A model generated the notes under the pieces. That model was given only the letters and a program-made list of their open reading frames with translations, had not been told where the DNA came from and searched no databases. The position numbers and the translations under genes were made by a program. From Escherichia coli (lineage in GTDB: Bacteria > Pseudomonadota > Gammaproteobacteria > Enterobacterales > Enterobacteriaceae), in assembly GCF_030013205.1 (NCBI RefSeq), contig NZ_CP122648.1: a stretch of DNA of 64,000 nt; one strand, written 5' to 3'. This document shows, piece after piece, positions 18,713-36,040 of the stretch (its first letter is position 1; the number at the start of each line of letters is the position of its first letter).

Positions 18713-19012
18713 ATGGCGCTTACAAAAGCTGAAATGTCAGAATATCTGTTTGATAAGCTTGGGCTTAGCAAGCGGGATGCCAAAGAACTGGTTGAACTGT
18801 TTTTCGAAGAGATCCGTCGCGCTCTGGAAAACGGCGAACAGGTGAAACTCTCTGGTTTTGGTAACTTCGATCTGCGTGATAAGAATCAACGCCCGGGACG
18901 TAACCCGAAAACGGGCGAGGATATTCCCATTACAGCACGGCGCGTGGTGACCTTCAGACCCGGGCAGAAGTTAAAAAGCCGGGTCGAAAACGCTTCGCCC
19001 AAAGACGAGTAA
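18713..19012 (+). CDS. ihfA: Integration host factor alpha subunit
   Basis: [99 protein letters not shown]. Confidence 0.97.
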
Positions 19013-19025
19013 TCTGATCTAACTA

Positions 19026-19054
19026 AAAAGGCCGCTCTGCGGCCTTTTTTCTTT
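19026..19054 (+). terminator. ihfA terminator hairpin; also the left copy (attL core) of the island-flanking direct repeat
   Basis: aaaaaggccgctctgcggccttttttcttt; the core ggccgctctgcggccttttttcttt recurs near 36016. Confidence 0.75.
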
Positions 19055-19317
19055 CAATAACCGATTGATTTATAATGTTTTATATATCTTCGTTCCACCA
19101 TGTGTCCACATTCAGTGGAGGGAGAGGGGAGTAAGCCCGCTACATTGTGGGCTTTGTCTTATAGTCTGATCACCGTTTCAAGTCAGTAAGGACACCAAAA
19201 AGAAAACCCGCAGTTTTTACGTTGCGGGTTTGTTGTTCATGTCTGTGAGATAGGGTGCCTTATCGACCTTACCCTGGCAACCGATTGACGGGGGATTGCT
19301 CCCCCGTCGCGGTTTCC

Positions 19318-19458
19318 TTACTGCTTACACTGTAAGAACGCCGCAAACTCCGCTCCCCAGAATCTCATCCGTATTTCGCACAGCGAACCGTGCAACATCC
19401 AGATGATGAGGATTGCCGTCACGCAGAACGTGATGGCCGTAAGCGATTTTTGCGACAT
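19318..19458 (-). CDS. Hok/Gef-family type I toxin (46 aa)
   Basis: MSQKSLTAITFCVTAILIIWMLHGSLCEIRMRFWGAEFAAFLQCKQ: single TM helix then SLCEIR..R....E.AAF signature shared by Hok/Gef/HokA; below the ORF-track size cutoff; coordinates hand-derived. Confidence 0.7.
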   Translation of the reverse strand: MSQKSLTAITFCVTAILIIWMLHGSLCEIRMRFWGAEFAAFLQCKQ

Positions 19459-19612
19459 AGCACTTGCTCCTTTTCCGGAGAGGCGCTAACCTTTCACTTG
19501 TCAAGGTAATGCGGTTAGGGCCTCGGTTAAACAGAAACGTTTTCCGGGGCCTTTCCACATCTGGCCTTCGGGTATTCCCTCCGACCATCAGCCGAAAGGC
19601 ACCCGCGCGCAA
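19325..19612 (-). other. mok-like reading frame fully overlapping the hok-like ORF in another frame (probable translational-coupling frame, not an independent protein)
   Basis: 95-aa track ORF ends 7 nt from the hok-like stop and spans it, the architecture of hok/mok loci. Confidence 0.45.
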
Positions 19613-19648
19613 TCTATCTCTTTTTTGTTACTCCGGCAATTCTGCCTG

Positions 19649-19909
19649 TTAATTTTGAGGTAAGGGCAAACTCATCTGATTGTTTCCTTTGTGTGAAGCT
19701 GGCAGTTCATGCCACGGGATACCTTCTGAAGAGTGAGCGCCGGAGGCGTGTTTCGATGTGAATTTATGGAAAGCTTCCAGTGTTGAGAAGCATACACCGC
19801 ATTCTAGGTTGTTACATTGGTAATACTTTTGCCGCACGGTGTTTGAATCATTTTCCGGACGACTGGTGCGGATTCGGGCAGATGCGCCACAAAGCGGACA
19901 ACGGAACAT
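19649..19909 (-). CDS. ogr: Ogr/Delta-family zinc-finger late-gene activator (P2 Ogr-like)
   Basis: MFRCPLCGASARIRTSRPENDSNTVRQKYYQCNNLECGVCFST...: CxxC ... CxxxxC pattern and spacing of P2 Ogr. Confidence 0.8.
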   Translation of the reverse strand: MFRCPLCGASARIRTSRPENDSNTVRQKYYQCNNLECGVCFSTLEAFHKFTSKHASGAHSSEGIPWHELPASHKGNNQMSLPLPQN

Positions 19910-20119
19910 AGCGACCTCCCTTACTGTGGTGCTTCCGCTATTCTAAGTTGTACTGAAACAGATTCCAATTAACAGCTTGTCTTGTGTGAAAAGTGGAAGT
20001 TCACAATTGTGATAGCCATTACTAACGTTGTGATGTATTAGTCAACGGGAAACAAGGCATCTGTAACATATCTATGGATATGTTATATTATTGTTGCCAT
20101 AGGAAAAATCCGCTTTAAA

Positions 20120-20434
20120 GTGGTTGCTGATCATGAATATTTGTATTGGAAGATAATTGCAATGAGCGAAAGAGTGTTTGAGAAAGAACTATATTCTGAA
20201 TGGGTTATACGCAATAGTCTATATTGGATGACTCCGCTTACTCGATGGAAACTCCATGAAGACGTTTCCCACTGGATAATCTCTTTTGAAAACGATAATC
20301 CCAAATTCCTTTATGAATTCGATAGGCTGCTTAATGATTACTCTTTGCGAGAAAAGCTACAGCATAAAACAGGGGCGTTGAGAGACTCTATTGTCCATAA
20401 AGTGCTTCGCAGTGTTGATGAGAGGCTTTCATAA
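20120..20434 (+). CDS. hxsD: His-Xaa-Ser system protein HxsD (LLNDYxLRE-motif protein)
   Basis: 104-aa ORF containing ...FDRLLNDYSLREKLQHK...; stop overlaps hxsB start (TAATG); true start may be the internal ATG near 20162. Confidence 0.7.
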   Translation: MVADHEYLYWKIIAMSERVFEKELYSEWVIRNSLYWMTPLTRWKLHEDVSHWIISFENDNPKFLYEFDRLLNDYSLREKLQHKTGALRDSIVHKVLRSVDERLS

Positions 20435-21822
20435 TGGAATTGATGCCATTTAATTTTGACAGATTGCCTAATGGACAGGTGTTTATAAGCAACCTTGCAG
20501 GTTTTCATCATTTCATTGGTGAGCAAGACCTTATTGATCTTTCTGATGAGCGAATTAGTTCGGAGCAATCAAACGTGCTAGAAAGTAAGCTTTTCATAAC
20601 CAGTGAAAGCTCATCTGCTATAACTCCCTATGCTTTAAGTTCTGCTTTTGCAAAACGATTGATGAATGAACTGGCTGTCAGGCCAATTTTCATGATTGTA
20701 CCCACATTACGTTGTGACCATACATGCAAGTATTGCCAGGTTAGTAGAGCTTCTGTTAATGCCTCAGGTTACGACCTAAATCCTGAGCTCATCCCCGATA
20801 TTATTTCGGCTATTAAAAAACTATCAACGCCACCTTACAAAATAGAGATACAGGGTGGGGAGCCTCTCTTGCGGTTTGATTTAATTCAGAACATCTATGA
20901 TCAATGTGCTGAAACGCTGGGAAGAACCAATTTTGAGATGGTGGTGGCATCAAGTCTGTCTGTCTTGAATGAGGATATGATTGAATGGTCGAGAGACCGG
21001 AACATAACGTTCTCTGTGTCGCTTGATGGTGAGGAAGTTGTTCACAACAGTAATCGAATTCTTGGTCGTGGGCTTGCGTACAGTAGAACAGTGTCAGGGG
21101 TAGAGGCTATCAAACACTCTTTAGGTGCTGGCCGCGTTGCAACGGTTACTACAGTTACTAAAGAGCTTATCAGACGTCCTGAATCGATTGTTCAGGCTCA
21201 CTTGTCTCTTGGGCTCAAGGACATGTTTATCCGACCTGTTAGTCCCTATGGGTTTGCACAAAAAGCTTCTTTCACCTTTTCTATGGACGAATACTTCAGC
21301 TTCTATGCCTCGTTGATAGATGAAATCCTTAAGATTAATAATGAAGGGATAAGGGTTGTGGAACATTCGGCCTCCATTCATCTGAAAAGGATCTTCAATC
21401 CCGGTTTTAGTGGCTATGCGGATTTAAAGTCTCCAAGTGGAGTCGTGCTTAACAGTATTCTTTTCAATTATGACGGTCGAGTATATGGTAGCGATGAGAG
21501 CCGTATGTTGCAGAAGGTGAATCCTGAAACGGAGTTCAGTGCGGGTGAAGTTAAGACGCTATCATTTTCTGATAGTCCTTACTATAACGCAGTATTGACT
21601 TCATCGTTCAATTTTGCTCTGCCAGGTTGTGATACATGTGCATATCAACCATTTTGTGGTTCAGATCCATGCCAGAACATAAGTGTACAGGGTGAGCCTG
21701 TCGGCGATAGGAGTCGTTCAACGTTTTGTCAATATCACAAGGGGATGTTCAGGTATCTGATGAACTGCATCTCAGAGGGTGGTTCGAAGGCTGAGATGCT
21801 AAAAGGATGGGCATATGTCTGA
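20434..21822 (+). CDS. hxsB: Radical SAM / SPASM-type maturase, first of the pair (HxsB-like)
   Basis: 462 aa; CxxxCxxC in ...PTLRCDHTCKYCQVS...; C-terminal Cys cluster ...LPGCDTCAYQPFCGSDPCQNI...; overlaps the neighbouring genes. Confidence 0.8.
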   Translation: MELMPFNFDRLPNGQVFISNLAGFHHFIGEQDLIDLSDERISSEQSNVLESKLFITSESSSAITPYALSSAFAKRLMNELAVRPIFMIVPTLRCDHTCKYCQVSRASVNASGYDLNPELIPDIISAIKKLSTPPYKIEIQGGEPLLRFDLIQNIYDQCAETLGRTNFEMVVASSLSVLNEDMIEWSRDRNITFSVSLDGEEVVHNSNRILGRGLAYSRTVSGVEAIKHSLGAGRVATVTTVTKELIRRPESIVQAHLSLGLKDMFIRPVSPYGFAQKASFTFSMDEYFSFYASLIDEILKINNEGIRVVEHSASIHLKRIFNPGFSGYADLKSPSGVVLNSILFNYDGRVYGSDESRMLQKVNPETEFSAGEVKTLSFSDSPYYNAVLTSSFNFALPGCDTCAYQPFCGSDPCQNISVQGEPVGDRSRSTFCQYHKGMFRYLMNCISEGGSKAEMLKGWAYV

Positions 21823-22927
21823 GGTTATCAGGAACGATATCTTTCATTTTGCTTCTACAGAGAACGTGCCCACGGGGTTCTATCGGTTATGCAAACAAAA
21901 ACCAGTGAACCCTTTATTCTTTTTGCCCAATTTGCTAGTAGTTGCTGAGGGCAATAATGATGCCATTCCACCATGCTTTGATTTCTCTGTTATTAGCACT
22001 GAATTATTTGAGTCAATTGAAGATGGAGATATTGGGATAATCAACAATGGCAATATGATACGCGTTATTCTGTCACGCAAAGCCAACCATAATACTGTCT
22101 TAGTTACGGAACGCTGCAATAACTTGTGTCTGTTTTGTTCGCAGCCACCAAAGAAAATAAATGATGACTGGCTACTTACCCAATCAGCTCTTGCTATAGC
22201 TTCATTTGGCTTGAACGGAGTTGTTGGGGTCAGCGGTGGTGAACCTTTGCTATATGGGGATGACTTCCTTCACTTCATTGATTTTATCATCGAGAATTCA
22301 CCAGATACTGCTTTACATGTTTTAACAAACGGACGCAAATTTGCTGATACCAACTTTACACAGGAAATGGCAAAGCGAAGCAAAAAGATCAAAATCACCT
22401 TTGGTATCCCGCTCTACTCATCAAGACCACTTGTGCATGATCATCTGGTAGGGAGTGATGGCGCATTTAATGAAACGGTTAAAGGGTTAATCAATGCAGG
22501 AAACTTGGGGATTAATATCGAACTTAGAGTTATTCCTACACTGGCTAACTATACCGAATTGGATGATATCGTAGAATTCGCTGGCCGTGTGTTCTCCAAC
22601 ATCAATCAGATTTCCCTTATGGGGTTGGAGCCTATCGGTTGGGCACGAAAAAACTGGTCCACCATCTTCATTGATCACAGTAGTTATAGTGAGAAAATAA
22701 TCTCTGCCATAGACGCTGCATACAGGTCAGGCATACCTCTGACAATTTTTAATTATCCTTTGTGTTATCTTCCTGAAAGGGCTAGGGAGCTTGCTGTTCA
22801 GTCGATCTCTGATTGGAAAAATTACTATCCAAAAGAATGTGATGAATGTACTCAGAAGCCTTCCTGTGCTGGCTATTTCAGTTCCTCAAAAGGCCGTTTT
22901 CATCAATCACCGAGACCAATTTTATGA
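21815..22927 (+). CDS. hxsC: Radical SAM maturase, second of the pair (HxsC-like)
   Basis: 370 aa; CxxxCxxC in ...VTERCNNLCLFCSQP...; C-terminal Cys-rich ...CDECTQKPSCAGYF...; 8-nt overlap with hxsB, ATGA overlap with hxsA. Confidence 0.8.
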   Translation: MSEVIRNDIFHFASTENVPTGFYRLCKQKPVNPLFFLPNLLVVAEGNNDAIPPCFDFSVISTELFESIEDGDIGIINNGNMIRVILSRKANHNTVLVTERCNNLCLFCSQPPKKINDDWLLTQSALAIASFGLNGVVGVSGGEPLLYGDDFLHFIDFIIENSPDTALHVLTNGRKFADTNFTQEMAKRSKKIKITFGIPLYSSRPLVHDHLVGSDGAFNETVKGLINAGNLGINIELRVIPTLANYTELDDIVEFAGRVFSNINQISLMGLEPIGWARKNWSTIFIDHSSYSEKIISAIDAAYRSGIPLTIFNYPLCYLPERARELAVQSISDWKNYYPKECDECTQKPSCAGYFSSSKGRFHQSPRPIL

Positions 22928-23559
22928 AAAAGTTTAATTTTGCTGCTCTACTTCCGGGATTTTTGGCTCTCAACAATTCTGTATGGGCAAGCGATTCATC
23001 TACAGGAGCGAGTGATTTACCTGGTATGACTCTTAATGAGCATGATTTAGTGATAGCTCCACTTAACACGGAAGTCCCATTTTATATCGCAGGGCATCGA
23101 AGCCATAGTTCTCATAGGAGCCATAGCTCTCATAGATCCTCATCAGGTGGTGGATACTATGGTGGAAGTACCCCCTATTATCCAAAAACATACAGCTCAC
23201 CAAGTTCATCTGGTTCTTCAAGTTCAGGTGCAAGTTCCTCATCGTCCTCTTCCTCGGTGCGTGCACTTCGTTCTAACGATAATAATAGAACCACTAACAC
23301 GAGTTCTGTTGGAACTTCAGAGGTTAACCGTACGAGTAATGGGCTTGCTTCTGATGCAGAGAAACGTAAGCGATTGATTATGCGAGTTCAGTTCGCATTG
23401 CTGGACAGGGGATTTTATAACGGAAATATTGACGGCATAATGGGGCCATCCACAAGGCTGTCTGTGAAAAATTACCGCATTGCGAATGGATTACCGATTC
23501 CTGCAACTGAAACACTCGACGCACAATTGTTAAATTCTTTGAATATATTAGCTCGCTAA
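22924..23559 (+). CDS. hxsA: His-Xaa-Ser repeat protein (HxsA-like), secreted, with peptidoglycan-binding-like C-terminal domain
   Basis: From internal ATG of track ORF 22846..23559: MKKFNFAALLPGFLALNNSVWA (signal peptide), HRSHSSHRSHSSHRS (5 HXS repeats), Ser/Gly-rich linker, C-terminal ...RVQFALLDRGFYNGNIDGIMGPSTRLSVKNYRIANGLPIPATETLDAQLL. Confidence 0.8.
   Translation: MKKFNFAALLPGFLALNNSVWASDSSTGASDLPGMTLNEHDLVIAPLNTEVPFYIAGHRSHSSHRSHSSHRSSSGGGYYGGSTPYYPKTYSSPSSSGSSSSGASSSSSSSSVRALRSNDNNRTTNTSSVGTSEVNRTSNGLASDAEKRKRLIMRVQFALLDRGFYNGNIDGIMGPSTRLSVKNYRIANGLPIPATETLDAQLLNSLNILAR
23097..23135 (+). repeat. Short in-frame tandem DNA repeat encoding the His-Xaa-Ser units
   Basis: agccatagttctcatagg / agccatagctctcataga-like 18-nt units; coordinates approximate. 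Confidence 0.6.
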
Positions 23560-23861
23560 ATCTCAGTGAGGTATAAATAAAAAGCAATAAATTATATTAG
23601 TCGCGCGTCCATTATTGGTGGGTAAGTTCAAGGACCGTCTGCTCTGTGTCAGGGGCAGATGGTCAGATAAGACTGTGCCGTTTAGCCCGCTAGTACGTGT
23701 CTGGACTAATACATTTAAGAGTCTCATTCTGCTATCCATTCCGGGATTTTTGCCTCAAGCTCAAGCTGTGTGGTAAAGCCGCTGTTATCAATGGTGTGCT
23801 CGGCTTTTGCAATAATCCAGTCCTGATTATCAATCTCGCTTTTAAATCCTGTTACCGTGCC

Positions 23862-23869
23862 ATGCATTT
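23862..23869. repeat. Target-site duplication (left copy) of the IS66-family element
   Basis: ATGCATTT, repeated at ~26569-26576. Confidence 0.7.
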
Positions 23870-23899
23870 GTAAGCGACTCGTCAGAACCGTATTGATAT

Positions 23900-25471
23900 T
23901 TACTGAGAGCTCAGATCAACTTTCCAGGGCAACAGATCGCGTACCCGGTTTGCCGGCCAGTCCTGGATATGTTCAATGACGTAACGCAGCCACTTTTCTG
24001 GCTCCACATTGTTCAGACGGCATGTGCCGATCAGCGAGTACAACACCGCCGCATGTTCACCACCGCTGTCGGAACCCGCGAACATCCAGTTTTTCCGGCC
24101 TACGGCCACTCCCCGTAAGGCGTTCTCTGCGGTGTTGTTGTCGATTTCCACCCAGCCATTACTGCAGTACACGTTCAGTGCATCCCACTGTTTCAGCAGG
24201 TATGCGAACGCTTTTGCCGTATCTGAGTGACGCGACAGTGTTTTCATCTGTTGCTGTATCCAGTCATACAGTGACTGCATCAGTGGCGCGGCTCTGGCTT
24301 TTCTTGCCGCCAGACGCTGTTCTGCTGAACAGCCCCGGACCTCTGCCTCGATGGCATACAGTTCACCGATACGCTGCAGGGCTTCCGTGGTGATGTAGGT
24401 GGGCGCTCTTGCATGCACATCGTGGATTTTTCTCCGGGCATGAGCCATACACGCGGCTTCCGTTATTCTGCCGGATTCGTATAACGCCCGGTAACCACCG
24501 TAAGCATCGGCCTGAAGCACACCGCTGTAACCGGCCAGGTGATTTTGTGGATGGATACCTTTCCGGTCCGGACTGTACGCGAACCAGACCGCCGGGGGCA
24601 TCTGTGAACCGGCGTTACGGTCATCACGGACGTAGACCCACAGCCGGGCTGTCCGGGTTTTACCGCTGCCCGGCTCCTGGACCGGGACGGGGATATCATC
24701 AGCATGGACTTTACCGGGCATCAGCACATACTGGCGCAGGACGTCATACAGCGGCTCCAGCAGTTCAGCAACAGCACCTGTCCAGCGCCCCAGTGTGGCA
24801 CGGCTCAGCTCCACTCCCTGACGACGGTATATTTCTGACTGGCGGTATAACGGCAGATGGTCTGCATATTTCCCGGTGACAACATGGGCCAGAAGCCCCG
24901 CTCCGGCATAACTGCGTGCAATGGGTTTTGAAGGTACTGGTGCCTGTACGATATGGTCGCACCGGCAACAGGCCTGTTTCGGACGTTGTGTTTCGATAAC
25001 CTTAAAGGCGCTGCTGATAAGCTCCAGTTGCTCTGACACATCACATCCCAGAGAACTGAGTTCACCACCACAGGCAGGACAGCATTCCTCTTCCGGCCGG
25101 ATAACCCGGGTTTCACGGGGAAGTGAGGCCGGTAACGGTTTACGGGCTGAAGACTGGCGCAGGGCGGATGGCAGTACCGGGTCATATTGCTCACCCAGCG
25201 TTTCCGCCATTTCTTCCTGAAGTGCGCTGATTCGCTCCTGTGCTTCCTGTATCTGCCGTTCGGTTTTTGCACGAAGTTTTTCTGAGCTTTTACCGAACTG
25301 CATACGTTGCAGTTTCGCAACCAGCGCCTTCAGCCGGTTGATTTCGGAAGCATAAGCCGCCACCCGCTGTGAGAGCAGGCGGTTGTATTCAGCCATCTGG
25401 CGGATGGTGTCCTGTTGCGTCTGCAACAGTGCCCGCAGGCGGGCGTTCTCATGAGCAAGTGAGGTGTCCAT
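23900..25471 (-). CDS. IS66-family transposase TnpC
   Basis: 523 aa with leucine-zipper-like N-terminus, Cys cluster (CPACGG...CRCDH) and C-terminal ...[23 protein letters not shown]... typical of IS66 TnpC. Confidence 0.85.
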
Positions 25472-25490
25472 ATCCTCACTTTACAACGGG

Positions 25491-25838
25491 TTATATGCGG
25501 ATTCCAGCGCGTTCCGTTCGTTTCGGGTGCTTCCAGTTGATACCTTCAAGAAGCATGGATAACTGAGCCGGAGTAAGGTGCACCTTGCCGTCACGGGTGA
25601 CTGGCCAGACGAAGCGGCCCCGCTCCAGGCGTTTGGTGAAGAGGCACAGTCCGTCACTGTCAGCCCACAACACTTTTATCTGGTCACCCCGGCGTCCGCG
25701 GAAGATGAACAGGTGTCCGGAGAACGGGTCATCCTTCAGGACGTTCTGAACTTTTGATGCCAGGCCGTTAAAGCCATTTCGCATATCGGTGATACCTGCA
25801 ACCAGCCAGATACGCGAACCTGCAGGGAGAGATATCAT
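25491..25838 (-). CDS. IS66-family accessory protein TnpB
   Basis: 115 aa, ...RIWLVAGITDMRNGFNGLASKVQNVL... Confidence 0.8.
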   Translation of the reverse strand: MISLPAGSRIWLVAGITDMRNGFNGLASKVQNVLKDDPFSGHLFIFRGRRGDQIKVLWADSDGLCLFTKRLERGRFVWPVTRDGKVHLTPAQLSMLLEGINWKHPKRTERAGIRI

Positions 25839-26515
25839 CAGTGGCTGCTCCCTTTTATTTCGCGGATAAGTGTCTGTAATAACGCCGGCGTCAGTTTACC
25901 TTTAAGCCTGAGAGTTCCGGCCGGCAGAACCAGCTCACAACACAGACTGTCGGACGGTGTATTTATCTGCTCTGGTTCCTGTGCGGGGGCCGGGATTTTA
26001 TTATCCGGCTCCGGCGTTAACGTCACGGGAAGCAGTGCCGGCATATTTTTTCCGGAAGGCAGCAGGCCACCTTTCCGGTATTGATGGCGCCAGTTGAAGA
26101 GCAGGTTATCGTTGATTCCGTTTTCCCGGGCGATCTGCGCCACACAGGCTCCGGGCTGCAGTGACTGCTCCACTAAGGCGATTTTAAACTCATAAGGGAA
26201 GTTGGGCCGCCGGGGACGTTTTTTTACCACGGGGGCTTCGGATATAACGGTGCTTTCAGGACGTACGACTGGTACCGTGGAAAATTGTCCGTAAAGGCAG
26301 GCATCAAGTTCCTGCTCCGACATGCCTGCGGGCAAAGGCCACGAAAGGCCAGCTCTCCGAAAGCGCACGAACATACTACAAACTGTTGATTTTGGTACAC
26401 CCAGGCGACGCCCGGCCACAACCCGGGGTAAATGTTCTTCAAAGTGAAGACGTAAAGCTTCAGTGATCCAGGTCCGGTGTTTCATACGATAGTGTCCATT
26501 AAAAATGATGGACAT
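25838..26515 (-). CDS. IS66-family accessory protein TnpA (start uncertain; track ORF may be over-extended)
   Basis: ...RPRRPNFPYEFKIALVEQSLQPGACVAQIARENGINDNLLFNWRHQYRKGG... Confidence 0.65.
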   Translation of the reverse strand: MSIIFNGHYRMKHRTWITEALRLHFEEHLPRVVAGRRLGVPKSTVCSMFVRFRRAGLSWPLPAGMSEQELDACLYGQFSTVPVVRPESTVISEAPVVKKRPRRPNFPYEFKIALVEQSLQPGACVAQIARENGINDNLLFNWRHQYRKGGLLPSGKNMPALLPVTLTPEPDNKIPAPAQEPEQINTPSDSLCCELVLPAGTLRLKGKLTPALLQTLIREIKGSSH

Positions 26516-26568
26516 TATTTTTGTAGAGCCGGAGGAAACAGACCAGACGGTTTAAATGAGCCGGTTAC

Positions 26569-26576
26569 ATGCATTT
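26569..26576. repeat. Target-site duplication (right copy) of the IS66-family element
   Basis: ATGCATTT. Confidence 0.7.
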
Positions 26577-27266
26577 CGGGGTAGAGTTCTGCACGCCCAC
26601 GTGCCAGCGTGATGGAAAATGATGCGGCTCCGCGTTGTAGCTGCTGCCACTTTGCCGCCGCTGCGCGTCTTGCTGCCTGCTCGTTCTGATAAGTCTTGCG
26701 TAACACAAACACATTGCCTTCCGCACCTTCCATATAATCACCTTCACGGCTGCTGCTTTTCTCCTTTTTAGGTTTTGGTGGTTTGCGGCGTTTCACACTG
26801 ACTTTTTTCTTTTTCCCGTAATTAAGATCAAGCCAGTAAGCGCGTACCCCCGTATACGCTTCGCGGTCAGCAATGCGGAACTGATGGCGATCGCCGCTGT
26901 TGCGCGTGATGGCGAACGATGGCAACGGCTGGCCCTGTGCGTTCACGCCACCGCCTGGCATGATGAATAACAGATTATCGCTTTTTACCGTGGTGATTGC
27001 GCCCAGCATTTCCGCCATGCGCGTAAGGAAGGACATGTCGCTTTCTTCGGTCTGGTCGGCGTGGTCGATTTCGATATCCATCAGCATTTCGCTGATTTGC
27101 GGTTTCAGGCCGTACCGATGAGCGATGGCGGATACCACACGCTCAACGGTCACATCATGCCAGGACACCTCACGTTTAACGTTAAATTCATCCCGAAAAT
27201 CTGCGCTTCTGGCTGAAACAGTCAGCCTGTCCGGCGGTCCTTCGTGAGCGATTTCATCAACAATTA

Positions 27267-36015: not shown

Positions 36016-36040
36016 GGCCGCTCTGCGGCCTTTTTTCTTT
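36016..36040 (+). repeat. Right copy (attR core) of the island-flanking direct repeat; doubles as the terminator-like hairpin upstream of btuC
   Basis: ggccgctctgcggccttttttcttt, identical to ~19030-19054. Confidence 0.75.

What the first reader, a model, noticed from the sequence alone, without database searches (positions are those of the whole stretch)
20120..23559. Complete His-Xaa-Ser (Hxs) four-gene operon with paired radical SAM maturases, carried as prophage cargo
Four translationally coupled genes (stop/start overlaps TAATG, 8-nt, ATGA) encode: a 104-aa protein with the exact motif LLNDYSLRE (the defining LLNDYxLRE signature of HxsD); a 462-aa radical SAM protein (CDHTCKYC) with a C-terminal SPASM-like Cys cluster; a second 370-aa radical SAM protein (CNNLCLFC); and a 211-aa protein carrying HRSHSSHRSHSSHRS. 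This is the HxsD-HxsB-HxsC-HxsA architecture. To my knowledge it has only been defined by comparative genomics and has no demonstrated biochemistry or biological role. The operon is AT-rich compared with the flanking housekeeping genes and sits between the Ogr-like gene and gene D of a P2-like prophage remnant, so it looks like a moron. An anti-phage defence or inter-bacterial role is my inference from that placement, not a demonstrated function.
Basis: partly seen in the sequence, partly recalled or inferred. Interest (0 to 1): 0.9.

Follow-up and report, generated by a model that had tools for sequence, protein, structure and literature searches.

The report
Known HXS anti-phage operon, P2-borne
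This is an intact copy of the four-gene HXS anti-phage system, shown in 2026 to block phage DNA entry, carried as cargo in a decayed P2-like prophage of E. coli; it is real and correctly recognised but no longer new.

Summary
Window 20162-23559 encodes hxsD-hxsB-hxsC-hxsA with the stated overlaps and motifs, and all four proteins pass the curated NCBIfam cut-offs. RefSeq already annotates identical DNA in E. coli K_EC180 as hxsDBCA.

The claim that the system has no known role is out of date. Li et al. (Nat Commun 2026, PMC13128918) showed that a related E. coli allele restricts 110 of 113 phages. Its two radical SAM enzymes, with HxsD, mature HxsA into a periplasmic, peptidoglycan-anchored effector that blocks phage DNA entry. 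Every residue they found essential is conserved here.

The prophage-cargo reading is supported and sharpened. A 3,776-bp AT-rich module with a promoter-like site conserved across alleles (19951-23726) fills the ogr-D slot of a P2-like prophage at the ihfA terminator. In other genomes that slot is empty or holds other genes. Here the prophage is a 17-kb remnant, and ISCro1 splits gene D.

Of 5,426 E. coli genomes, 155 carry hxs. All 45 with this allele have it beside ogr. The seven other contexts I sampled are integrase/relaxase islands. Klebsiella carries it on conjugative plasmids.

Verdict: already known, with modest added value on its mobile-element carriage.

The parts
19030..19054 (.). 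attL: a 25-bp direct repeat (GGCCGCTCTGCGGCCTTTTTTCTTT, the ihfA terminator) marking the left end of the prophage remnant
   Evidence: The exact repeat occurs again at 36016-36040. ihfA and btuC flank the island.
19318..19458 (-). hok/gef family toxin gene of the P2-like element
   Evidence: RefSeq annotation of identical DNA. It sits beside ogr in all P2-like loci fetched.
19649..19909 (-). ogr/Delta-like zinc-finger late activator gene, the left conserved flank of the cargo slot
   Evidence: The conserved flank ends at 19950 when compared with the empty site.
19951..23726 (+). hxs cargo module (3,776 bp, 41.9% GC) filling the ogr-D slot
   Evidence: blastn against the empty slot in L005 and against slots with other cargo (L006-L008) gives sharp boundaries at 19950 and 23727.
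20063..20091 (+). Promoter-like site GTAACA-N17-TATTAT, overlapped by a dyad (TAACATATC-TATG-GATATGTTA)
   Evidence: Consensus scan. The block is conserved upstream of hxsD in all four allele contexts, although sequence further upstream diverges. Function is inferred, not shown.
20162..20434 (+). hxsD (90 aa; LYW at 20-22, LLNDYSLRE at 56-64)
   Evidence: TIGR03976 at 90.6 bits against a cut-off of 50. The start codon follows RefSeq and the allele alignment.
20434..21822 (+). hxsB (462 aa), a radical SAM maturase with CxxxCxxC at 94-101 and a C-terminal Cys cluster at 399/402/408/413/432/445
   Evidence: TIGR03978 at 558.2 bits against 370. Pfam gives Radical_SAM and Fer4_12.
21815..22927 (+). 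hxsC (370 aa), a radical SAM maturase with CxxxCxxC at 101-108 and auxiliary Cys at 317/342/345/351
   Evidence: TIGR03977 at 398.4 bits against 267.9. Pfam gives Radical_SAM.
22924..23559 (+). hxsA (211 aa): signal peptide 1-22, leader, five HxS repeats at 58-72 ending in SHRSS, a Ser-rich linker and a C-terminal peptidoglycan-binding domain
   Evidence: TIGR03979 at 159.4 bits against 121.65. Pfam PG_binding_1 covers 154-191 with i-E 2.9e-4.
23727..23869 (-). 3' end of P2 gene D (codons ~317-364), the right conserved flank of the slot
   Evidence: 98.6-99.3% identity to the D 3' ends in L005, L007 and L008 (95.1% in L006). tblastn with full-length D.
23870..26567 (-). ISCro1 (IS66 family: tnpA, tnpB, tnpC) inserted in gene D with a target-site duplication of about 8-9 bp
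   Evidence: RefSeq annotation. The flanks overlap by 9 bp on the uninterrupted D gene. It is absent from O26:H11 11368.
26568..27264 (-). Middle part of gene D (codons ~88-324); the first 87 codons are deleted
36016..36040 (.). attR: the second copy of the 25-bp repeat, just upstream of btuC

Best explanation
This is an intact HXS (His-Xaa-Ser) anti-phage system. It is a self-contained module with its own promoter-like site, carried in the ogr-D slot of a P2-like prophage that integrated at the ihfA terminator. Here the prophage has decayed, so the module now behaves as a fixed chromosomal gene set. The mechanism below is taken from Li et al. 2026, who worked on a related allele, and is inferred for this copy. 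In the cytoplasm the two radical SAM enzymes HxsB and HxsC, with HxsD bound to HxsC, mature the HxsA precursor. Maturation consists of N-terminal processing and a +8 Da modification on the last repeat (SHRSS). [quoted passage not shown] The five basic HxS repeats then stall entry of the incoming phage genome, without killing the cell and without affecting adsorption. On a phage, such a module acts as broad superinfection exclusion that benefits the lysogen and therefore the prophage.
For: Identity is shown here. All four NCBIfam equivalog models are passed. The gene order is D-B-C-A with overlapping stops and starts. Function is shown elsewhere. The related allele restricted 110 of 113 phages, all four genes were needed, DNA entry was delayed, and HxsA was periplasmic and carried +8 Da on SHRSS (PMC13128918). 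The two can be linked. Every residue that paper found essential is present at the same numbering: HxsB C98/C101 and C399/C402, HxsC C105/C108 and C342/C345, the LYW and LLNDYxLRE motifs, signal peptide 1-22, five HxS repeats, SHRSS and the PG-binding domain. HxsA codons 1-92 show 0 nonsynonymous and 29-35 synonymous codon changes between the four alleles first compared, and 0-1 against 30-31 in four more, so the substrate half is under strong purifying selection. The cargo status is also shown here. The module has sharp boundaries against an empty slot. The same slot holds other cargo in other genomes. GC content is 41.9% against 53.6%. The promoter-like block is conserved across alleles. All 45 genomes with this allele have it next to ogr. 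O26:H11 11368 carries it in a complete-looking 35-kb P2-like prophage, and IMG/VR viral contigs show the same arrangement.
Against: This allele has not been tested. The strain used in the paper (MEM, CP012378) could not be fetched. The paper's 214-aa HxsA matches the 1218KP-type allele, to which this copy is only 63% (HxsD), 74% (HxsB), 80% (HxsC) and 86% (HxsA) identical. Expression from the proposed promoter is not shown, and promoter-like sites in the region are no more frequent than in shuffled sequence. No terminator was found after hxsA. The final effector step, electrostatic binding of DNA, is only a model in the paper itself. PADLOC 2023 has no model for the system, so there is no independent classifier support.
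Confidence: 0.85

Rival explanations
1. The operon makes a modified peptide or protein with a role unrelated to defence, such as a His-rich periplasmic metal-binding or cell-wall protein, or a secreted RiPP-like (ribosomally made, post-translationally modified peptide) natural product used in competition between bacteria. This was the open possibility before 2026.
For: The radical SAM maturases are most similar to RiPP and SPASM-type peptide maturases. His- and Ser-rich repeats could bind metals. The earlier literature treated HxsB and HxsC as putative peptide maturases (PMC9062424).
Against: Direct phage-challenge, DNA-entry and localisation data exist for a related allele. HxsA is a 211-aa protein with a peptidoglycan anchor, not a small exported peptide. 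Its neighbours in the islands are defence-type genes such as Abi, TOPRIM and ABC-three-component systems.
Confidence: 0.04
2. The copy in this window is an inactive relic that decayed together with its prophage.
For: The surrounding prophage is heavily degraded. ISCro1 splits D, the first 87 codons of D are deleted, and the tape-measure and tail-fibre genes are partial. In other genomes hxsB or hxsC are interrupted by IS2, IS3, ISSen4 or ISVsa5, so the system is sometimes lost.
Against: All four reading frames are complete with every essential motif. The operon is 100% identical in several genomes and at least 99% identical in 45. The proteins are 99-100% identical to those in the complete-looking O26 prophage. 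The IS insertion lies outside the module.
Confidence: 0.07
3. The main target is DNA entry in general, for example conjugation, transformation or phage satellites, and phage exclusion is only one aspect. The module would then serve mobile elements as an entry-exclusion device against rival elements.
For: hxs sits on P2-like prophages, on integrase/relaxase islands and on 418 plasmids, of which 331 are conjugative and 322 are from Klebsiella. The paper states that effects on plasmids and satellites were not tested.
Against: No data exist. Plasmids were transformed into HXS-expressing cells in the published work, presumably without difficulty. Conjugative DNA enters through a different channel.
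Confidence: 0.1

Closest known systems
HXS anti-phage system of E. coli MEM (Li et al., Nat Commun 2026, PMC13128918)
   Same: Same four families, same D-B-C-A order, same Cys ligand positions, same signal peptide 1-22, and five HxS repeats ending in SHRSS with a PG-binding domain. The N-terminal 92 residues of HxsA are identical or nearly identical in every E. coli and Klebsiella allele compared, apart from a 7-residue deletion in the O55:H7 copy.
   Different: This is a different allele. HxsA is 211 aa here and 214 aa in the paper. Against the 214-aa-type allele, HxsD, HxsB and HxsC are only about 63%, 74% and 80% identical. This copy is P2-prophage cargo, whereas the paper describes HXS as typically chromosomal and 'intrinsic'. 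It has not been tested.
P2-like phage cargo hotspots: tin/old between gpA and gpQ, Z/fun in the tail genes, and int-proximal sites (Rousset et al. 2022, PMC9122126; bioRxiv 10.64898/2026.02.27.708500)
   Same: A small locus of a few kb with high turnover lies between two conserved phage genes. It holds defence-type cargo of deviant GC content with its own promoter-like site.
   Different: The slot here lies between ogr and D. Neither paper names it in the text I read. The second paper mentions only unspecified hotspots 'within the late genes'.
Phage-encoded superinfection exclusion that blocks DNA injection, such as T4 Imm and Sp
   Same: A prophage-borne envelope factor stops an incoming phage genome at the entry step without killing the host. 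This is a functional analogy; the paper makes the comparison with T4 Imm and Sp.
   Different: There is no sequence relationship. The PHROGs hits were only radical SAM families and families of unknown function. HXS needs radical SAM maturation and has a very broad spectrum, whereas Sie (superinfection exclusion) systems are narrow.
Radical SAM/SPASM peptide maturases (AnSME, PapB, CbpB, SCIFF maturase)
   Same: A radical SAM core with CxxxCxxC plus C-terminal auxiliary-cluster cysteines. There are weak full-length NCBIfam matches, for example the anaerobic sulfatase maturase model over residues 92-444.
   Different: The scores are far below those families' cut-offs. Pfam SPASM is not detected. 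The substrate is a 211-aa exported protein, not a short peptide.

Membership tests
HXS / His-Xaa-Ser system (NCBIfam TIGR03976-03979; Li et al. 2026) | HxsD: TIGR03976 above its cut-off, with the LYW and LLNDYxLRE motifs | tested here: met
   90.6 bits against 50. LYW is at 20-22 and LLNDYSLRE at 56-64 of the 90-aa form.
HXS / His-Xaa-Ser system | HxsB: TIGR03978 above its cut-off, CxxxCxxC, and second-cluster cysteines at 399/402 | tested here: met
   558.2 bits against 370. Cysteines are at 94/98/101 and 399/402, the residues mutated in the paper.
HXS / His-Xaa-Ser system | HxsC: TIGR03977 above its cut-off, CxxxCxxC, and second-cluster cysteines at 342/345 | tested here: met
   398.4 bits against 267.9. 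Cysteines are at 101/105/108 and 342/345.
HXS / His-Xaa-Ser system | HxsA: TIGR03979 above its cut-off, with tandem His-Xaa-Ser repeats (five, the last within SHRSS) | tested here: met
   159.4 bits against 121.65. H.S occurs at 58, 61, 64, 67 and 70, and SHRSS at 69-73.
HXS / His-Xaa-Ser system | HxsA has an N-terminal signal peptide and a C-terminal peptidoglycan-binding domain | tested here: met
   PG_binding_1 covers 154-191 with i-E 2.9e-4. There are also weak SleB and endolysin hits. The signal peptide (MKK, a hydrophobic stretch, then VWA|SD at 22/23) was read from the sequence and matches the paper's 1-22. No signal-peptide predictor was available.
HXS / His-Xaa-Ser system | Gene order hxsD-hxsB-hxsC-hxsA in one operon | tested here: met
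   Overlapping stop and start codons at all three junctions.
HXS / His-Xaa-Ser system | Protects against phage by delaying genome entry; HxsA is processed, carries +8 Da and is exported | not testable with these tools
   Shown only for the MEM allele. It requires cloning, phage challenge and mass spectrometry of this allele.
Radical SAM/SPASM maturases | SPASM domain (Pfam PF13186) with the seven-Cys motif | tested here: inconclusive
   No Pfam SPASM hit for either enzyme. HxsB has Cx2Cx5Cx4C plus two further cysteines, and HxsC has Cx2Cx5C. Weak NCBIfam alignments to SPASM-type maturases extend across the C-terminus.
P2-like prophage cargo (moron) at a variable slot | Lies between two conserved phage genes, and the same slot is empty or holds different genes in related prophages | tested here: met
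   The slot is empty in L005, holds a YecA-family gene in L006, a PIN-domain gene in L007 and a hypothetical gene in L008. The boundaries are at 19950 and 23727.
P2-like prophage cargo (moron) at a variable slot | Separate transcription unit with deviant base composition | tested here: met
   The operon runs opposite to ogr and D. A promoter-like block is conserved within the module. GC content is 41.9% against 53.6%. Promoter activity itself was not tested.
Phage superinfection-exclusion proteins (Sie; T4 Imm and Sp) | Sequence homology to known Sie families | tested here: not met
   The PHROGs hits are radical SAM families and families of unknown function, plus one weak endolysin hit (PG-binding region); none is an exclusion family. 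The resemblance is functional only.

The most novel reading that the evidence does not exclude
In enterobacteria HXS is essentially a module of mobile elements rather than an 'intrinsic' chromosomal defence. It sits in a so-far unnamed ogr-D cargo slot of a P2-like phage lineage, on integrase/relaxase islands and on Klebsiella conjugative plasmids. The divergent, untested P2-borne allele would then act as a broad superinfection-exclusion device for the phage, possibly with a different spectrum, for example towards P2-like phages or their P4 satellites.
Probability: 0.45. Interest if true: 0.4.

Novelty: already known. Interest (0 to 1): 0.22.

Why it matters
That work is published, so the locus opens no new question by itself. 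What this analysis adds is context. In E. coli the system sits on mobile elements in every context I examined. 29% of carriers have it as cargo of a P2-like prophage, in a slot not listed among the known P2 hotspots. This qualifies the published view of HXS as an intrinsic host system distinct from phage-encoded exclusion. The substrate half of HxsA is almost invariant while its maturases diverge by 20-38%, which is a useful constraint for anyone working out the +8 Da chemistry.

Tried and rejected
- **PADLOC (2023).** No Hxs model exists. Only weak viperin-family radical SAM hits appeared, so this says nothing about defence status.
- **Nucleotide search of GenBank phages.** No match. A protein search found only a Leptospira phage (30% identity) and one faecal contig. 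Sequenced free phages therefore do not document this allele, and the evidence for phage carriage rests on prophages and IMG/VR contigs.
- **The strain tested in the paper.** I tried to fetch MEM (CP012378) to measure identity to this copy, but it is not in the collection and the paper's supplements are not held. I used the 214-aa HxsA allele of strain 1218KP as a proxy. This is an assumption.
- **An apparent inversion and truncated D.** I first read the D(-)/FI(+) arrangement and the short annotated D as signs of a defective prophage in O26:H11. tblastn shows that D is full-length and in frame in L002, L005, L007 and L010. The arrangement recurs at three integration sites, so it is normal for this lineage and I dropped that reading.
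- **Terminator after hxsA.** None was found.
- **Rfam over the island.** The only hit was STnc540, at the ihfA 3' end.
- **Searches of the P2 hotspot papers.** Neither 'ogr', 'gpD' nor 'radical SAM' occurs in the text of either paper, and 'Hxs' is also absent from the 2026 preprint.
Full report
**1. Observation**

The window is E. coli DNA. Positions 19600-23900 are 100% identical to strain K_EC180 (NZ_CP062203), where NCBI's PGAP pipeline already names the genes hxsD, hxsB, hxsC and hxsA.

The three junctions overlap as stated: TAATG, the 8-nt ATGTCTGA and ATGA. All quoted motifs are present.

Each protein exceeds the curated cut-off of its NCBIfam equivalog model:

| Protein | Model | Score (bits) | Cut-off (bits) |
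|---|---|---|---|
| HxsD | TIGR03976 | 90.6 | 50 |
| HxsB | TIGR03978 | 558.2 | 370 |
| HxsC | TIGR03977 | 398.4 | 267.9 |
| HxsA | TIGR03979 | 159.4 | 121.65 |

There are three small corrections.
- hxsD most likely starts at the ATG at 20162 and encodes 90 aa.
- Pfam finds Radical_SAM in both enzymes but no SPASM domain, although Cx2Cx5Cx4C-type clusters are present.
- ISCro1 lies between hxsA and most of gene D.

**2. What is known**

A full-text search found one study of this system, a January 2026 preprint and its March 2026 Nature Communications version (Li et al., PMC13128918). The authors cloned the operon from E. coli MEM. Their main results were as follows.
- It restricted 110 of 113 coliphages. 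The exceptions were T4, one other Tequatrovirus and P1.
- All four genes were required.
- Adsorption was unaffected and infected cells did not die.
- T7 genome entry was delayed from about 8-12 min to about 30-50 min.
- T7 escape mutations mapped to the ejectosome proteins gp15 and gp16.

[quoted passage not shown] HxsA is processed at its N-terminus only when HxsB, HxsC and HxsD are present. Periplasmic HxsA carries a +8 Da modification on SHRSS. HxsC binds HxsD. Replacing any one of the five HxS repeats abolishes defence.

The statement that the system has no demonstrated biochemistry or role is therefore out of date.

**3. Is this copy likely to work the same way?**

The residues the paper mutated are all present at identical numbering: HxsB C98/C101 and C399/C402, and HxsC C105/C108 and C342/C345. 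So are LYW, LLNDYxLRE, the signal peptide ending VWA|SD at 22/23, five HxS repeats ending in SHRSS, and PG_binding_1 at 154-191.

I could not fetch the MEM sequence. The paper's HxsA has 214 aa, which matches the allele of strain 1218KP. Against that allele this copy is 63% (HxsD), 74% (HxsB), 80% (HxsC) and 86% (HxsA) identical. This is therefore an untested, fairly divergent allele of a tested system, and its function here is inferred.

**4. Context in the window**

The island between ihfA and btuC is bounded by a 25-bp direct repeat, the ihfA terminator, at 19030-19054 and 36016-36040. It contains hok/gef, ogr, the hxs operon, a gene D split by ISCro1 and lacking its first 87 codons, a partial tape-measure gene, tail-fibre fragments and an integrase fragment. 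It is a 17-kb remnant of a P2-like prophage.

Comparison with an unoccupied ogr-D junction (L005) places the cargo at 19951-23726, or 3,776 bp, replacing about 10 bp. The module is 41.9% GC against 53.6% for pheT-ihfA and runs opposite to ogr and D. It carries a GTAACA-N17-TATTAT block about 75-100 nt upstream of hxsD. That block is conserved in all four allele contexts, while sequence further upstream diverges. Calling the module a moron is justified.

**5. The ogr-D slot**

In related P2-like prophages, at three different chromosomal sites, the slot varies:
- empty in L005;
- a YecA-family gene in L006;
- a PIN-domain gene in L007;
- a 340-aa hypothetical gene in L008.

In the spread sample, 13 of the 21 rows that matched both flanks were empty (a span of about 500 bp) and 8 held 1.5-2.4 kb of other DNA.

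The papers on P2 hotspots name gpA-gpQ, a tail-gene site and int-proximal sites. I found no mention of ogr-D.

**6. Distribution**

Of 5,426 complete E. coli genomes, 155 carry hxs. They fall into allele groups at 99% identity or more to the window (45 genomes), about 90% (46) and about 72% (64).
- **The 45 genomes with this allele.** All have hxs next to ogr, and 44 are contiguous with ihfA. In O26:H11 11368 the prophage looks complete: int, C, cox, A, Q, P, O, N, M, L, lysis genes and tail genes, with a full-length D. IMG/VR holds four matching viral contigs, two of about 36 kb.
- **The other groups.** I sampled seven loci. All lie in islands at ssrA, tRNA-Thr or the pao/yah region. Six carry integrase or recombinase genes together with a relaxase; the tRNA-Thr island is a CP4-6-like element bounded by IS copies. 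They often sit beside other defence-type genes, and a TIGR04141/DUF6119 gene follows hxsA in six of the seven.
- **Plasmids.** HxsB is encoded on 418 plasmids. Of these, 322 are from Klebsiella and 331 are conjugative.

The 29% share in P2-like prophages agrees with the paper's figure of 23% in predicted prophages. The paper's conclusion that HXS is an intrinsic host system, distinct from phage-encoded exclusion, looks too strong.

**7. A detail worth keeping**

Between alleles whose HxsD, HxsB and HxsC differ by 20-38%, codons 1-92 of hxsA carry 29-35 synonymous changes and 0-1 nonsynonymous changes. The exception is the O55:H7 copy, which has a 7-residue in-frame deletion in this region. This region covers the signal peptide, the leader, the repeats and the Gly/Tyr stretch. 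The whole N-terminal half is under very strong purifying selection. That fits a substrate that must satisfy two maturases, an export route and a target all at once.

**8. Verdict**

The claimed novelty is gone, because the system is published and annotated by name. What remains is contextual: carriage on mobile elements, an ogr-D cargo slot, and a divergent untested allele. Interest is low to moderate.

Noticed in passing
window 22924-23199 (hxsA codons 1-92); also L003, L004, L011, L020-L023: The N-terminal 92 residues of HxsA are identical or differ by one residue across the P2, island and Klebsiella-plasmid alleles. There are 29-35 synonymous and 0-1 nonsynonymous codon changes, while HxsD, HxsB and HxsC diverge by 20-38%. 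The O55:H7 allele (L019) has a 7-residue in-frame deletion (SSTGASD) in the leader.
   Followed up: yes
L005 3311-3352; L006 3600-4739; L007 3554-5056; L008 3502-4524: The ogr-D junction of this P2-like lineage is a variable cargo slot. It can be empty or hold a YecA-family gene, a PIN-domain gene, a hypothetical gene or hxsDBCA. The P2 hotspot papers I read do not name it.
   Followed up: partly
L003 15507-17138; L004 15441-17048; L011 9475-11124; L019 12486-14298; L021 12439-14043; L022 12419-14023: A gene of about 540 aa from the TIGR04141/DUF6119 'sporadically distributed' family directly follows hxsA in six of the seven non-P2 contexts sampled. It is a pseudogene in two of them. It is absent from the P2-borne module and from the plasmid copy. 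It may be an accessory partner or a separate defence gene.
   Followed up: no
L023 (K. pneumoniae IncFIB plasmid pZ0117KP0017-3) 6729-10126; HxsB is encoded on 418 plasmids, of which 322 are from Klebsiella and 331 are conjugative. It is about 92% identical in protein sequence to this copy. In the one plasmid examined, IS elements flank the operon. The 2026 paper does not discuss plasmid carriage.
   Followed up: partly
(for example NZ_CP035860, NZ_CM194533, NZ_AP027957, NZ_CP053723, NZ_CP115351): In several E. coli genomes hxsB or hxsC is interrupted by IS2, IS3, ISSen4 or ISVsa5. The recurrent inactivation suggests that the system carries a cost or is dispensable in some lineages.
   Followed up: no
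window 20064-20085: A 9-bp perfect inverted repeat (TAACATATC-TATG-GATATGTTA) overlaps the conserved promoter-like site. A TAACA-N12-TGTTA dyad is kept in three of the four alleles aligned. It may be an operator.
   Followed up: no
L002 15605-16866; L005 3353-4620; L006 5139-6397: In this P2-like lineage D and ogr are transcribed divergently from the FI-FII-E-T-U block, unlike the arrangement I recall for P2 itself. PGAP calls a short D (about 265 aa) plus a spurious partial ORF, although a full-length D of 364-366 aa is in frame.
   Followed up: partly
window 18954-19110: An Rfam STnc540 sRNA match (41.9 bits against a gathering score of 38) spans the ihfA 3' end and terminator. This is the sequence duplicated as the prophage att site.
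   Followed up: no
KF114877.1 80102-81502 (Leptospira phage vB_LnoZ_CZ214-LE1): This is the only named phage in the GenBank phage collection with an annotated hxsB. It is 30% identical over 99% of the protein.
   Followed up: no
L010 (ETEC1738) 1-9000: In one genome the hok-ogr-hxs-D-FI block adjoins lambdoid lysis genes instead of ihfA. This suggests a rearrangement between prophages or a different integration site.
   Followed up: no
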